Positions 258-45,681 of a stretch of 64,000 bases of DNA are shown one piece after another. This DNA comes from Escherichia phage vB_EcoM_D4. The notes under the pieces were generated by a model. The model had not been told where the DNA came from. It saw nothing but the letters and a program-made list of their open reading frames with translations, and ran no database searches. Both the position numbers and the translations under genes were made by a program. Where the stretch lies: the sequence record PP886228; one strand, given 5' to 3'. How positions within the stretch are numbered: position 1 is the stretch's first letter; each line of letters starts with the position of its first letter.

Positions 258-1610
258 ATGTGGAATCCAATTGTTAATGTAGATATTACATTGAACACCG
301 CAGGAACTACAAGAGAAGGTTTTGGGCTACCACTATTTTTAGCTTCAACAGATAACTTTGAAGAAAGAGTCCGTGGTTACACTTCCTTAACTGAAGTTGC
401 TGAAGATTTCGATGAAAACTCTGCTGCATATAAGGCTGCTAAACAACTTTGGAGTCAGACTCCTAAAGTAACCCAGCTTTATATTGGTAGACGTGCTATG
501 CAGTACACTGTATCAATTCCTGATGAGGTTACTGAGAGCACCGACTATTCTTTAACTGTAGCTGTTGGCGGTGGAGTTTCTCAACCATTCCAGTATACAG
601 CACAGACATCAGATACCGCTGAGAAAGTGCTACAGCAGTTCAAAACACAGATTGAAGCAGAACCTTCTGTAAAAGACCTTGTTACTGTCAATGTAACTGG
701 TGCTGGCGGTTCAGCAACAATGGTAATCACCAAAGCTGGCGACAATGACTTCGTGAAGGTTACTACTACAGCACAAACAGTGTCAATTGCAAGCACAACT
801 GCTGACACAGCATCGACTGCTCTGGCAGCTATTGAAGCTTATTCAACTGACTGGTATTTCATTGCAGCAGAAGACAGAACTCAACAGTTTGTCTTAGCAA
901 TGGCTTCTGAGATTCAAGCTCGTAAGAAGATTTTCTTTACAGCTAACTCTGATGTAGCAGCACTGCAAGGTACAGAATTAGCCAGTGCAAATGACGTTCC
1001 AGCACAACTTGCTAAGAATAAGTACACTCGTACAGTTTGCTTGTGGCATCACACAGCAGCAGAAGATTATCCAGAAATGGCATACATCGCTTATGGTGCT
1101 CCATATGATGCAGGTTCAATTGCTTGGGGTAACGCACAGTTAACTGGTGTAGCTGCTTCTCTACAGCCATCTAATCAGAGACCTCTGACAAGTATTCAGA
1201 AGTCAGCTTTAGATGCACGTCACTGTAACTTTATTGACCTTGATGGTGGTGTTCCAGTGGTTCGTAGAGGGATTACTTCTGGTGGGGAATGGATTGATAT
1301 CATCCGTGGTGTTGACTGGTTAGAATCAGACCTGAAAACTTCTCTGAGAGACTTGCTAATTAACCAGAAGGGTGGTAAGATTACTTATGATGATACTGGT
1401 ATTACCCGTATTCGTCAAGTCATTGAAACCTCTCTGCAAAGAGCAGTCAACAGAAACTTCCTGTCATCTTACACAGTTAATGTTCCTAAAGCCTCTCAAG
1501 TTGCTTTGGCAGACAAGAAAGCTCGCATCCTGAAAGATGTTACCTTCGCAGGTATCTTAGCAGGGGCTATCTTGGATGTTGACTTGAAAGGTACAGTGGC
1601 TTACGAATAA
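258..1610 (+). CDS. tail sheath protein
   Basis: 450-aa ORF heading a sheath-tube-chaperone-tape measure-baseplate gene order; call by size and synteny. Confidence 0.6.
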   Translation: MWNPIVNVDITLNTAGTTREGFGLPLFLASTDNFEERVRGYTSLTEVAEDFDENSAAYKAAKQLWSQTPKVTQLYIGRRAMQYTVSIPDEVTESTDYSLTVAVGGGVSQPFQYTAQTSDTAEKVLQQFKTQIEAEPSVKDLVTVNVTGAGGSATMVITKAGDNDFVKVTTTAQTVSIASTTADTASTALAAIEAYSTDWYFIAAEDRTQQFVLAMASEIQARKKIFFTANSDVAALQGTELASANDVPAQLAKNKYTRTVCLWHHTAAEDYPEMAYIAYGAPYDAGSIAWGNAQLTGVAASLQPSNQRPLTSIQKSALDARHCNFIDLDGGVPVVRRGITSGGEWIDIIRGVDWLESDLKTSLRDLLINQKGGKITYDDTGITRIRQVIETSLQRAVNRNFLSSYTVNVPKASQVALADKKARILKDVTFAGILAGAILDVDLKGTVAYE

Positions 1611-1625
1611 TAGAGGTAAATTGGA

Positions 1626-2072
1626 ATGGCTATGTATCAGCAATATTCCCCTAAAGACGTTGTGTGTAGCTGGAATGGTATTGCCATTGAAGGCTTTGCC
1701 CCAGACTCATTCTTACGTCTACAGAGAACATCACCACTTGTGACACCAGTTGTAGGTGCAGGTGGTCAAGTTGCTCTGACAAGAAATGCAGACAAGACAG
1801 GTACTATTGAGATTGAGCTAATGCAGACTTCTCTCTCTAATCAGATGCTTTCTGCAATTCAAGCTAAACAAGACAATATGGAACTTGAAGAAGATATCTC
1901 TTCTAACTTCGTAATCTACGACCCATCAGGCTCTGTTCTGGCAACTGGTATTAATGCTTGGTTGCAGGAACTACCACAGATTGAACTTGGTCGTGACCAG
2001 AACTCTAAAACTTGGATTTTTGGTTGTGAGAAGCTAGACTACACTTCTACAATTCCAGCGTCAAGTGTTTAA
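1626..2072 (+). CDS. tail tube protein
   Basis: 148-aa ORF immediately after sheath and followed by a terminator hairpin, typical for the tube gene. Confidence 0.55.
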   Translation: MAMYQQYSPKDVVCSWNGIAIEGFAPDSFLRLQRTSPLVTPVVGAGGQVALTRNADKTGTIEIELMQTSLSNQMLSAIQAKQDNMELEEDISSNFVIYDPSGSVLATGINAWLQELPQIELGRDQNSKTWIFGCEKLDYTSTIPASSV

Positions 2073-2083
2073 TAAATCCTATA

Positions 2084-2118
2084 AGGGGGAGACTTTAAAA
2101 GGTCTTCCCCTTTTTTGT
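2084..2118 (+). terminator. rho-independent terminator after tube gene
   Basis: GC hairpin gggggagac...gtcttcccc followed by TTTTTTG. Confidence 0.5.
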
Positions 2119-2145
2119 TTCTTTTAAAAGTATTAAGGAATCACA

Positions 2146-2544
2146 ATGAAAACAGAATCTAGAGTAATTAATGGTAAGAAAGTAAACATCATTCTGCTTG
2201 GGGCAAGAGATGGTATTAAGATGTCTATGAAGTTGGGTAAAATTGTTGTTCCAACATTTGCACAGATGCTGTCAAGCCTGACTGATAAAGATAAGAAAGA
2301 AGCTCCGATGGTTCCGTTTAAAGAACTTGTTGAAGCTTGTTTTGACAGAATTGAAGAAATTAACCTTGAAGAAATGGCTACCCTGTTATTTCAAGGGGCA
2401 ACTGTTGATGACTTCCCACTTAATATTGATACATACTTCCAAGCAAACTATGGTGAATTTATTGATTACTTAGCATTTGCGCTGGAGGCAAACTTCGGAA
2501 GTTTTTTCGAAGCAAGCATTTTCAAAAGCCTAACTTCTCAGTAA
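2146..2544 (+). CDS. tail assembly chaperone (gpG-like)
   Basis: 132-aa ORF between tube and tape measure; slippery T TTT TTC near its 3' end. Confidence 0.5.
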   Translation: MKTESRVINGKKVNIILLGARDGIKMSMKLGKIVVPTFAQMLSSLTDKDKKEAPMVPFKELVEACFDRIEEINLEEMATLLFQGATVDDFPLNIDTYFQANYGEFIDYLAFALEANFGSFFEASIFKSLTSQ

Positions 2545-2546
2545 AC

Positions 2547-2785
2547 ATGGGTAATACTCTACAGACACCACTGACTGATGCTGCTGTAGAGGCAACCTAT
2601 GAAGAAGCAGACGAGATGAAATTTGTGCTTGCTATTTATGGTATGGAAGGGTGTAAAGAAACACTTGACCAACTCTTTGCTATGACATTCTCTGATTTAT
2701 TATCATTGAGACAATTTCTTGAGATTCAGAGGTCGTATAAAGAGGAAATTGCTTACAACGAACTTAGAAGAGCAGGAAAAATGTA

Positions 2786-2786
<1 letters not shown>
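2547..2786 (+). CDS. chaperone extension ORF (gpGT-like -1 frame)
   Basis: -1 frame is open from 2466 to 2786 and overlaps the end of the chaperone ORF; standard G/GT arrangement. Confidence 0.45.
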
Positions 2787-8170
<5,384 letters not shown>

Positions 8171-44018: not shown

Positions 44019-44289
44019 AGAGAAGTGGGAAATTTTACCATTAGTGAGTGAAGGCGGTAACGGTTGTGAGATGTACATGATACGTGGTCATGTCCCAGAA
44101 CCAATTGCACTTGAGATGGTAAACAACTTTACAGATGGCTCTTACAAAGACTTAGGAGAACCAACTGTCAAGCAACAATGGGTTAAACCTGTACCAGACA
44201 GCACAGGTAACTGTAGTGTACTTTATCACGTTGTAGACCCTGCAAAATGCAAATCTGCAATGGCAGTAACAAACGTAACTTTTGACTGA
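44011..44289 (+). CDS. hypothetical protein
   Basis: 92-aa ORF. Confidence 0.3.
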   Translation: MAKEKWEILPLVSEGGNGCEMYMIRGHVPEPIALEMVNNFTDGSYKDLGEPTVKQQWVKPVPDSTGNCSVLYHVVDPAKCKSAMAVTNVTFD

Positions 44290-45181
44290 GAGAGAAACTA
44301 TGAAAACATCTATCCGTGTTACAGTTCATTCACCGACTAAAGGGACTCATGAAGAAGAGTTTAACATCATTCAATTCCCTTCTGGTGAGATTGGTGGACA
44401 CTTTTCACAAGAGCTTGTTGATTTTACTGCTTATGCAGCATCATCTATCAACAATGTGATTATGATTGTGAAAGGTTATGATAAGGACACATTGTTTGCT
44501 GTGGCACTTGCTAAAGAAGCAATTGATGATTTAGTCCCTCATGACTATGCCTTAAAGACTGTCATTTTTTACTACTTACCAAATGCACGATATGACCGTC
44601 ACATGTTTAAAGGTGATGCAGCAGCTTTAAAGGTTTTTGCTAAACAGGTCAATGCAATGGGGTTTGGTGCAGTCTGTGCAGTTGACCCTCACAGTTATGT
44701 ACCAGATAACCTGTTTAACTGCTTCCAGAGTATTCCTCAAAAGGAAATTGCAGTCCACTATGCAAATGACCCACTGGTTGATTACTTAGTAGCCCCAGAT
44801 GCAGGTGCTGCTAAGAAGATTGCAGAGACTGCTAAAGAGGTGGATAAGCCATACATCACAATGTCTAAAGTGCGTAACCTTAAAACTGGTGAAATTACTG
44901 GTATGCGAATCCTTGATGATGTTGATTTGACAGATAAAACCGTCATGATTCTGGATGATATTTGTGATGGAGGACGAACCTTCATAGAAGCAGCTAAACA
45001 TCTTCGTGAAGCAGGTGCAAAACGTGTGGAACTCTATGTAACACATGGTATCTTCTCTAAAGGTGTTGAAAACTTACTTGACAATGGTATTGACCACATC
45101 TACACTACAAACTCTTTAGGGGAAGCTAAAGACCGTGGCTTAACACATTATGGTCAAGTTACTGTAGCAAATTTGGATTAG
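44282..45181 (+). CDS. ribose-phosphate pyrophosphokinase-like protein (PRPP synthetase family)
   Basis: PRPP-binding loop VMILDDICDGGRT and overall about 300 aa Prs-like layout. Confidence 0.65.
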   Translation: MTERETMKTSIRVTVHSPTKGTHEEEFNIIQFPSGEIGGHFSQELVDFTAYAASSINNVIMIVKGYDKDTLFAVALAKEAIDDLVPHDYALKTVIFYYLPNARYDRHMFKGDAAALKVFAKQVNAMGFGAVCAVDPHSYVPDNLFNCFQSIPQKEIAVHYANDPLVDYLVAPDAGAAKKIAETAKEVDKPYITMSKVRNLKTGEITGMRILDDVDLTDKTVMILDDICDGGRTFIEAAKHLREAGAKRVELYVTHGIFSKGVENLLDNGIDHIYTTNSLGEAKDRGLTHYGQVTVANLD

Positions 45182-45189
45182 GTATTAAA

Positions 45190-45681
45190 ATGGATAAGGG
45201 TTACTTCGAAAAATACCTAATATACGAACCGGAGACAGGTTTACTAATTTGGAAAGTAACCCTTTGCAATACCGCTATTGCTGGTAATGTTGCTGGCACA
45301 AGGTCTAAGAAGGGTTATATCCAAGTCCAGATAAATAAGAAGAGGTACTATGCACATAATATTGCATGGATTATGTCTGGAGGTGAGATACCAAGTGGAT
45401 ATGAGATAGACCACATAGACCTTGATAAATCTAATAATAAGTTGGAGAATTTAAGACTTAGCACAAAGTCACAAAATCAGAGGAATAGGGGTATATACAA
45501 GAATAATAAAACTGGTGTGAAGGGTGTAAGTTTTTGTAAACAAACAGGTCTTTACAAAGCAAGAGTCATGCTTTACCATAAAGAATACTTTTGTGGAAGA
45601 TTTAAAACGGTAGAAGAAGCAAAAGAAGCTGTAATTAAAAAGCGAATAGAACTTCATGGTGAGTTTGCAAGACATAACTAA
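45190..45681 (+). mobile_element. free-standing HNH homing endonuclease with AP2 domain
   Basis: IDHIDLDKSNNKLENLRL...QNQRN HNH_3 motif plus C-terminal TGVKGVSF...YKARV AP2-like segment; inserted between two metabolically linked genes. Confidence 0.6.

What the first reader, a model, noticed from the sequence alone, without database searches (positions are those of the whole stretch)
2466..2786. Candidate programmed -1 ribosomal frameshift (T TTT TTC) in the tail assembly chaperone
In the chaperone ORF the zero-frame codons TTT TTC (2503-2508) with preceding T form the slippery heptamer T TTT TTC (2502-2508). The -1 frame is open from 2466 through the end of the next ORF (2786), so slippage would fuse the 120 N-terminal residues to the 79-aa downstream product. 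A conserved G/GT-type frameshift is well known at this position between tube and tape measure genes in tailed phages; the heptamer here fits exactly.
Basis: partly seen in the sequence, partly recalled or inferred. Interest (0 to 1): 0.45.

Follow-up and report, generated by a model that had tools for sequence, protein, structure and literature searches.

The report
Known tail-chaperone frameshift site, Felix O1-type phage
The window is a Felix O1-type phage, and the flagged T TTT TTC really is the conserved slippery site where some ribosomes should shift back one base to make a longer tail-assembly chaperone; this is real but ordinary, and has already been predicted for this phage family, though not shown by experiment.

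Summary
The window matches the Felixounavirus Escherichia phage vB_EcoM_I14.1 at 100% over the 3.5 kb compared (window 1600-5100). Gene order is sheath (258-1610), tube (1626-2072), chaperone G (2146-2544, Pfam Phage_TAC_15), a 79-aa ORF (2547-2786) and tape measure (2786-5014). T TTT TTC lies at 2502-2508 in the G frame. The -1 frame is open from 2466 to 2786. Slippage would give a 213-aa fusion (121 + 92 residues, not 120 + 79).

One heptamer in a 26-codon overlap is weak evidence on its own (P about 0.07). Conservation is the strong evidence. All intact relatives examined carry T TTT TTY at the homologous codons, followed by an open -1 frame of 69-123 codons. These are 13 GenBank phages from Ounavirinae and Vequintavirinae and 80 IMG/VR loci (26 lineages at most 60% identical, 35-65% GC). 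Many relatives lack any start codon for the downstream part. An SD-like GGAGG lies 13 nt upstream and is conserved in most lineages. No conserved downstream RNA structure was found.

The frameshift is already annotated in phages Mushroom and Mordin. It is mentioned for Moogle, Michonne and Mijalis, and a 2025 paper reports the conserved GTTTTT motif across Andersonviridae. I found no experimental proof. Verdict: real, already known, low interest.

The parts
258..1610 (+). Tail sheath gene (450 aa)
   Evidence: PHROG 205 tail sheath, E=9e-125; Pfam DUF3383.
1626..2072 (+). Tail tube gene (148 aa)
   Evidence: Pfam KPP10_Orf10 and PHROG 280. The homologue is annotated as tail tube protein in Erwinia phage Omen.
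2083..2112 (+). Terminator-like hairpin plus T run between the tube gene and G
   Evidence: 13-bp stem followed by TTTTGTTT. The equivalent site is annotated as a terminator in phage Mordin.
2146..2544 (+). Tail assembly chaperone G (TAC-N), 132 aa, the zero-frame product
   Evidence: Pfam PF21822 Phage_TAC_15, E=1.9e-19; PHROG 1613 tail assembly chaperone, E=7e-49.
2484..2488 (+). SD-like GGAGG, 13 nt 5' of the heptamer (candidate 5' stimulator)
   Evidence: Anti-SD duplex of -9.3 kcal/mol, in the top 0.2% of 11-mers of the near-identical radambza locus L002. 18 of 26 divergent lineages fall in the top 5% of their own locus. The Glu codon is GAG in 19 of 24 lineages against 9.7 expected, P=6e-5. 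The spacing lies within the 9-14 nt range reported for -1 shifts.
2502..2508 (+). Slippery heptamer T TTT TTC (Ser119 third base, Phe120, Phe121)
   Evidence: It is invariant as T TTT TTY in all 80 IMG/VR loci and in the 13 intact phage records.
2508..2786 (+). -1 frame segment read after the shift (92 codons plus stop): linker RSKHFQKPNFSVN plus the T domain
   Evidence: Translation. The -1-frame peptide is conserved from the first codon after the heptamer across genera.
2547..2786 (+). The '79-aa ORF', annotated as a separate tail assembly chaperone gene in most records. It is best read as the C-terminal part of GT.
   Evidence: PHROG 4963. No SD precedes its ATG. The ATG is ATA in one 98%-identical phage (L029) and is absent in other genera.
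2786..5014 (+). Tail length tape measure protein gene (742 aa)
   Evidence: Pfam TMP_3; PHROG 4036, E=0.

Best explanation
This is the G/GT-type programmed -1 ribosomal frameshift of a Felix O1-type myovirus.

Most ribosomes translate the chaperone gene 2146-2544 to its TAA and release the 132-aa G protein. A minority slip back one base, with tRNA-Phe on UUU in the P site and tRNA-Phe on UUC in the A site (U UUU UUC, 2502-2508). Both tRNAs re-pair with UUU UUU. Translation then continues with CGA (Arg) at 2508 in the -1 frame through to the stop at 2784-2786. The result is a 213-aa GT protein that shares its first 121 residues with G.

The slip is probably helped by pairing of the 16S rRNA anti-SD with GGAGG (2484-2488), 13 nt upstream, as in E. 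coli dnaX and many IS elements. It is not helped by a downstream hairpin.

By analogy with lambda gpG/gpGT, many G copies and a few GT copies coat the tape measure protein (2786-5014). The T domain recruits the tube protein (1626-2072), so that the tail polymerises to the measured length. Neither protein ends up in the virion.

Shown here: the sequence anatomy, the conservation and the lack of an independent start codon. Inferred: that the shift occurs, that it is ribosomal, its efficiency, and the protein contacts.
For: (1) Anatomy: the heptamer is in register, the -1 frame is open from 2466 to 2786 and the +1 frame is closed.

(2) Context: the order is sheath, tube, G, T, tape measure, and G belongs to Pfam Phage_TAC_15.

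(3) Conservation in GenBank relatives: T TTT TTC is in frame and followed by an open -1 frame of 92-123 codons that ends at or just before the tape measure gene. This holds in Felixounavirus, Mooglevirus, Suspvirus, Kolesnikvirus, the Hafnia, Pectobacterium and Yersinia phages, and Vequintavirinae at 26-29% identity.

(4) Conservation in IMG/VR: 80 of 80 loci (45 distinct 51-mers, GC 35-65%) have NNT TTT TTY. In 26 lineages at most 60% identical, Phe1 is always TTT (P about 10^-10.5 from local codon usage). The preceding Ser/Cys codon always ends in T (P about 10^-12). Neighbouring synonymous sites vary freely.

(5) DNA-level island: blastn against Erwinia phages finds only window 2491-2531, the slip region, at 92.7% identity, while the proteins are 43% identical.

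(6) No conserved start codon: in Kolesnikvirus, Hafnia, Pectobacterium, Yersinia and Vequintavirinae phages the first start codon in the -1 frame lies well inside the conserved T sequence. L029 has ATA in place of the ATG.

(7) SD-like element at 13 nt. The review range for -1 shifts is 9-14 nt.

(8) U_UU.U_UU.C falls in the class of efficient -1 heptamers measured in E. coli and is used by IS elements.

(9) Joined CDS annotations exist in Mushroom and Mordin, and the frameshift is stated in the Moogle, Michonne, Mijalis and Adele papers.
Against: I found no experimental detection of a GT product for any Felix O1-type phage.

There is no significant or conserved 3' stimulatory structure and no Rfam match. 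Lambda G/GT is generally held not to need a 3' structure either (my recollection, not checked here).

Inserting one U by RNA-polymerase slippage on the T6 run would give exactly the same protein, so the sequence cannot distinguish the two mechanisms.

The SD-like element is absent in Kolesnikvirus, the Hafnia phage and Vequintavirinae. It is therefore not essential, and it is partly confounded with the conserved Leu-Glu-Ala/Val peptide.

The IMG/VR loci were retrieved with a peptide pattern that required Ser/Cys-Phe-Phe. The conservation test therefore applies to codon choice, not to the amino acids. The lineages are related by descent, so the P values are rough.
Confidence: 0.85

Rival explanations
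1. The fusion is made by transcriptional slippage. RNA polymerase adds one extra U on the T6 run (2502-2507) in a few percent of transcripts. Normal translation of those mRNAs then gives the same 213-aa GT protein.
For: A T7 version of the run puts G and T in one ORF, exactly as seen in the deposited genome of phage CL1. Eight of the 45 distinct homologous sequences have T7-T8 runs. A weak hairpin (2482-2498) directly precedes the T run in a terminator-like geometry.
Against: Productive slippage in bacteria is described for runs of about 9 A or T. Most homologues keep only six T's, although longer runs are accessible through synonymous changes. The hairpin pairs fully in only 6 of 26 lineages. 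A conserved SD-like element at the spacing that stimulates ribosomal -1 shifts has no role in this model. U UUU UUC is a measured efficient ribosomal shift site in E. coli.
Confidence: 0.07
2. There is no recoding. The 79-aa ORF (2547-2786) is an independent gene, translated from its own ATG by termination-reinitiation two bases after the G stop codon, and the heptamer is incidental.
For: Most GenBank records, including the 100% match, annotate two separate genes. In this phage an ATG follows the TAA by 2 nt (TAAACATG), which would permit coupling.
Against: No SD precedes the ATG. The ATG is ATA in L029 and is missing in other genera. In those genera the conserved -1-frame peptide still starts right after the heptamer and upstream of any start codon. 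Incidental origin cannot explain the invariant codon choice NNT TTT TTY across 26 divergent lineages with 35-65% GC.
Confidence: 0.05
3. The two-ORF arrangement is a sequencing or assembly error in a homopolymer. The true gene is a single 213-aa ORF with seven T's, as in phage CL1.
For: CL1 (OK040806.1) has T7 and a single 213-aa ORF.
Against: Nearly all of the roughly 290 near-full-length GenBank matches align in two frames. In IMG/VR, 23 of 23 Felixounavirus-type contigs have T6, while T7 and T5 each have 0. All divergent lineages keep the frame break. CL1 is the outlier.
Confidence: 0.02

Closest known systems
Bacteriophage lambda gpG/gpGT tail assembly chaperone -1 frameshift (Levin 1993; Xu, Hendrix & Duda 2004), and the myovirus counterparts P2 E/E+E'
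   Same: The gene pair lies immediately upstream of the tape measure gene and after the tube gene. The short product comes from standard translation. [quoted passage not shown] No 3' structure is evident. The downstream ORF lacks its own initiation signals (review text).
   Different: The heptamer is U UUU UUC rather than lambda's G GGA AAG (the lambda sequence is from my own knowledge). G belongs to Pfam Phage_TAC_15, and no other chaperone family appeared in the Pfam scan. An SD-like element sits 13 nt upstream. No experimental evidence exists for this phage group.
Annotated frameshifted tape-measure chaperones of Felix O1-like phages (Salmonella phage Mushroom NC_041923; Citrobacter phages Mordin, Moogle, Michonne, Mijalis), and the conserved GTTTTT motif reported for 231 Andersonviridae and 56 Vandenendeviridae alleles (Viruses 2025, PMC12846349)
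   Same: It is the same gene, the same site and the same -1 direction. Mushroom is in the same genus, and its joined CDS covers the homologous interval. Ounavirinae belongs to Andersonviridae.
   Different: Nothing differs for the site itself. This analysis adds four things: the full in-register heptamer T TTT TTY, codon-level statistics, extension to Vequintavirinae and to uncultivated lineages of 35-65% GC, and the upstream SD-like element.
E. coli dnaX and IS3-family -1 frameshift signals
   Same: A canonical heptamer with an internal SD-like stimulator 9-14 nt upstream. U_UU.U_UU.C is itself used by some IS elements.
   Different: dnaX and most IS signals also have a 3' stem-loop or pseudoknot, and none is detectable here. 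The gene function is unrelated.

Membership tests
G/GT-type tail assembly chaperone programmed -1 frameshift | The gene pair lies between the major tail/tube gene and the tape measure gene. | tested here: met
   Tube 1626-2072, G 2146-2544, T ORF 2547-2786, tape measure 2786-5014.
G/GT-type tail assembly chaperone programmed -1 frameshift | The second ORF overlaps the 3' end of the first in the -1 frame. | tested here: met
   The -1 frame is open over 2466-2786 and the overlap with G is 79 nt. The +1 frame is closed.
G/GT-type tail assembly chaperone programmed -1 frameshift | A canonical slippery heptamer X XXY YYZ lies in the zero-frame register inside the overlap. | tested here: met
   T TTT TTC at 2502-2508, the only one in the overlap.
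G/GT-type tail assembly chaperone programmed -1 frameshift | The slippery site and frame arrangement are conserved among divergent homologues. | tested here: met
   13 intact GenBank loci and 80 IMG/VR loci. All 26 lineages at most 60% identical have NNT TTT TTY and an open -1 frame.
G/GT-type tail assembly chaperone programmed -1 frameshift | The downstream part has no independent translation start. | tested here: met
   There is no SD before ATG 2547. The ATG is lost in L029 and absent in other genera, while the upstream -1-frame peptide stays conserved.
G/GT-type tail assembly chaperone programmed -1 frameshift | The first ORF is a recognised tail assembly chaperone. | tested here: met
   Pfam PF21822 Phage_TAC_15, 70.9 bits against a cut-off of 22; PHROG 1613.
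G/GT-type tail assembly chaperone programmed -1 frameshift | A fusion protein is made at a few percent of G and is required for tail assembly. | not testable with these tools
   This needs proteomics, reporter assays or phage genetics. I found no such data in the literature searches.
dnaX/IS-type -1 signal with flanking stimulators | An SD-like sequence lies 9-14 nt 5' of the shift site. | tested here: met
   GGAGG at 2484-2488 with a 13-nt spacer. It is conserved in 18 of 26 lineages, and the GAG codon is enriched. Its function is untested.
dnaX/IS-type -1 signal with flanking stimulators | A stable stem-loop or pseudoknot lies 5-9 nt 3' of the shift site. | tested here: not met
   Folding z-scores are -1.6 and 0.03, RNAalifold predicts 0 pairs, and there is no Rfam hit.
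Programmed transcriptional slippage | A long homopolymeric A/T run (about 9) at the recoding point. | tested here: not met
   The run is T6 here and in 37 of 45 distinct homologous sequences; the others have T7-T8. The run length criterion comes from the review text.
T4-like solution: separate short and long chaperone genes | Two gene copies, one short and one a full-length fusion, with no frameshift. | tested here: not met
   There is a single G copy followed by a -1 ORF between tube and tape measure. The mechanism is as summarised.

The most novel reading that the evidence does not exclude
The long chaperone form may not come from ribosome slippage at all. It could come from RNA-polymerase slippage on the conserved T6-T8 run, or from a mixture of both. 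In that case the conserved GAGG would serve another purpose. That would make this very large chaperone family (Andersonviridae, Vequintavirinae, Vandenendeviridae and many uncultivated myoviruses) a case of programmed transcriptional realignment on an unusually short run. A more modest novel reading is that the U6Y heptamer plus an SD-like element at 13 nt is an ancient two-part signal kept across hosts of 35-65% GC.
Probability: 0.08. Interest if true: 0.5.

Novelty: already known. Interest (0 to 1): 0.15.

Why it matters
The practical value is for annotation. The exact GenBank match to this window and most of the nearly 300 related records list two separate 'tail assembly chaperone' genes. 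They should instead carry one gene with a joined -1 frameshift product of 213 aa.

Biologically, the site adds one more well-conserved example to a classic recoding event. The invariant U UUU UUY with an upstream SD-like element and no 3' structure is a compact, testable signal. Because it persists across hosts of very different GC content, it could serve as a clean model for SD-stimulated -1 shifting. It does not open a new question.

Tried and rejected
(1) Downstream stimulatory structure. Folding 2509-2600 gave z = -1.6 and folding 2470-2560 gave z = 0.03. RNAalifold on seven Ounavirinae sequences predicted 0 pairs. The 8-bp hairpin near 2557-2591 lies about 49 nt from the site and is not conserved. 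Rejected.

(2) Rfam scan of 2000-3000 at E up to 1. Only weak chance hits appeared, none at the site.

(3) The hairpin enclosing or preceding the T run (2482-2498 and CUUCGGAAG...). It is flagged as terminator-like but pairs fully in only 6 of 26 lineages. It follows from the Leu-Glu...Phe-Gly codons. Rejected as a conserved element.

(4) Other slip sites or a +1 shift. There is no other in-frame canonical heptamer in the overlap, and the +1 frame closes after 6 codons.

(5) Independent initiation of the 79-aa ORF. Rejected; see the rival explanations.

(6) Homopolymer length error. T7 and T5 variants are absent from IMG/VR, while T6 has 23 hits.

(7) PDB sequence search with the fusion protein found nothing significant.

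(8) tRNA scan of the window, looking for a phage tRNA-Phe, found no tRNA genes in these 64 kb.

(9) Xu et al. 2004 could not be read, as it is not held in the library.

(10) Structure prediction and the large protein-database searches were not used, because they would not have changed the verdict.

Full report
**Identity of the window and gene context**

Window 1600-5100 matches Escherichia phage vB_EcoM_I14.1 (PP892526.1) at 100% identity. It matches Felix O1, wV8 and about 200 other Felixounavirus genomes at about 97%.

The first 5 kb carries a myovirus tail module:
- sheath, 258-1610 (PHROG 205, Pfam DUF3383);
- tube, 1626-2072 (Pfam KPP10_Orf10);
- a strong terminator-like hairpin, 2083-2112;
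- a 132-aa tail assembly chaperone, 2146-2544 (Pfam Phage_TAC_15, E=1.9e-19);
- a 79-aa ORF, 2547-2786 (PHROG 4963, no Pfam hit);
- the 742-aa tape measure protein, 2786-5014.

**Check of the observation**

The zero-frame codons are AGT TTT TTC GAA, so T TTT TTC occupies 2502-2508 in the X XXY YYZ register. The -1 frame has TGA at 2463-2465 and is then open to the TAA at 2784-2786. The +1 frame closes after six codons.

A -1 shift yields a 213-aa protein. It consists of 121 residues shared with G, followed by RSKHFQKPNFSVN and the 79-aa ORF.

In-frame canonical heptamers occur at 0.0027 per codon in the window's long ORFs. The chance of at least one in the 26-codon overlap is therefore about 0.07. 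The motif alone proves little.

**Comparative evidence from GenBank phages**

I fetched the homologous region from 15 GenBank phages. They cover Felixounavirus, Mooglevirus, Suspvirus, Kolesnikvirus, unclassified Hafnia, Pectobacterium and Yersinia phages, and two Vequintavirinae.

Every intact locus has T TTT TTC in frame at the aligned Ser/Cys-Phe-Phe. This holds even at 26-29% protein identity. Each also has a -1 frame that opens shortly before the heptamer and runs 92-123 codons to the tape measure gene.

In a DNA search, the Erwinia Kolesnikvirus phages match only window 2491-2531, the slip region, at 92.7% identity. The fusion proteins are 43% identical.

**Comparative evidence from IMG/VR**

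A scan of IMG/VR with the G alignment returned 80 loci, giving 45 distinct 51-mers. GC content ranges from 35 to 65% and identity falls to 23%. All carry T TTT TTC (37 distinct sequences) or T TTT TTT (8), followed by 69-116 open -1 codons.

That scan used a peptide pattern ending in [SC]FF, so the fair test is codon choice. I took 26 lineages at most 60% identical to one another:
- the first Phe is always TTT (P about 10^-10.5 from local codon usage);
- the preceding Ser/Cys codon always ends in T (P about 10^-12);
- the neighbouring Leu, Asn, Phe/Tyr and Gly codons vary freely.

These P values assume independent lineages and are therefore rough. Even so, the signal of nucleotide-level selection is unmistakable.

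**The downstream part is not an independent gene**

No SD precedes ATG 2547. One 98%-identical metagenomic phage (L029) has ATA there.

In Kolesnikvirus, Hafnia, Pectobacterium, Yersinia and Vequintavirinae phages, the first start codon in the -1 frame lies well inside the conserved T sequence. The -1-frame peptide is conserved from the first codon after the heptamer: RSKHFQKP in five Ounavirinae groups, and R..RYW.P in many distant lineages.

**Stimulators**

No significant structure follows the site. Folding z-scores are -1.6 and 0.03, RNAalifold predicts no pairs, and Rfam gives nothing.

Upstream, GGAGG (2484-2488) lies 13 nt before the heptamer. A review gives 9-14 nt as the spacing at which internal SD sequences stimulate -1 shifts.

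The anti-SD duplex energy is -9.3 kcal/mol, in the top 0.2% of the near-identical radambza locus. In 18 of 26 lineages the equivalent window falls in the top 5% of its own locus. The Glu codon that contributes to the element is GAG in 19 of 24 lineages against 9.7 expected (P=6e-5).

The element is missing in Kolesnikvirus, the Hafnia phage and Vequintavirinae, so it acts at most as a modulator.

A weak hairpin at 2482-2498, flagged as terminator-like, is not conserved.

U_UU.U_UU.C falls in the class of efficient -1 heptamers measured in E. coli (H_HH.U_UU.Y) and is used by IS elements.

**Mechanism**

The best explanation is the classic G/GT mechanism. Most ribosomes make G, and a few percent slip -1 on U UUU UUC and make GT. 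G and the G part of GT bind the tape measure protein. The T part recruits the tube protein. Neither is present in the virion (review text). The protein contacts and the efficiency are inferred by analogy, not shown here.

The main rival is transcriptional slippage on the T run, which would give the identical protein. It is disfavoured because:
- the run is only six T's in most lineages, whereas bacterial slippage is described for runs of about nine;
- an SD-like element at the ribosomal spacing is conserved.

Sequence analysis alone cannot exclude it.

**Prior knowledge**

Most records, including the exact match to this window, annotate two separate chaperone genes. Others already recognise the frameshift:
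- Salmonella phage Mushroom (same genus) and Citrobacter phage Mordin carry a joined CDS over the homologous interval.
- The genome papers for Moogle, Michonne and Mijalis state that the Felix O1-like tape measure chaperone uses a -1 translational frameshift.
- A December 2025 paper reports an invariant GTTTTT motif at the 3' end of the chaperone gene in 56 Vandenendeviridae alleles and 231 Andersonviridae phages, and interprets it as a -1 frameshift site. Andersonviridae contains Ounavirinae.

I found no experimental demonstration.

**Verdict**

The finding is real and correctly interpreted, but it is already known. This analysis adds the in-register heptamer statistics, the extension to Vequintavirinae and to uncultivated high-GC lineages, the absence of a 3' structure, and the conserved SD-like element. 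Interest is low.

Noticed in passing
L007 (Escherichia phage CL1, OK040806.1) 1557-1563; homologous to window 2502-2508: CL1 has seven T's instead of six, so G and T are fused in a single annotated 213-aa ORF identical to the predicted frameshift product. It is either a homopolymer sequencing error or a mutant that makes only GT. T7 and T5 versions have 0 hits in IMG/VR against 23 for T6.
   Followed up: partly
L029 (IMGVR_UViG_3300045988_004167), homologous to window 2547-2549: In a 98%-identical Felixounavirus, the ATG that starts the annotated 79-aa ORF is ATA (Ile in the -1 frame). This argues that the ATG is not needed as a start codon.
   Followed up: yes
window 2083-2112: A strong terminator-like hairpin (13 bp plus T run) lies between the tube gene and the chaperone gene. 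It is annotated as a terminator in phage Mordin. It may lower expression of the chaperones and tape measure relative to sheath and tube.
   Followed up: no
PP892526.1 (L001), the whole record: The GenBank record identical to the window carries the taxonomy line Demerecviridae; Tequintavirus. Its sequence is that of a Felixounavirus (97% identity to Felix O1 and wV8 in this region), so this looks like a taxonomy mislabel.
   Followed up: no
L013 (Citrobacter phage BSwM KMM4, OP902293.1) 1201-1837: The chaperone gene is broken: an 89-aa ORF, with the tblastn match split into three pieces. Probable indel errors in the assembly.
   Followed up: no
GU169904.1 (Staphylococcus phage SA1) 74360-74997: A 147-kb record labelled as a Staphylococcus phage contains a copy of this chaperone region whose fusion protein is 97% identical to the window's. 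This suggests a chimeric or contaminated assembly.
   Followed up: no
window 45169-45175: An in-frame A AAT TTG lies 6 nt before the stop of ORF 44282-45181, and its -1 frame runs on into the next gene (45190-45681). That gene has its own ATG, so this is probably just two adjacent genes. Conservation was not examined.
   Followed up: partly
window 1-64000: ARAGORN finds no tRNA genes in the 64-kb window, although Felix O1-type genomes are reported to carry about 22-25. The tRNA cluster must lie outside the window.
   Followed up: no
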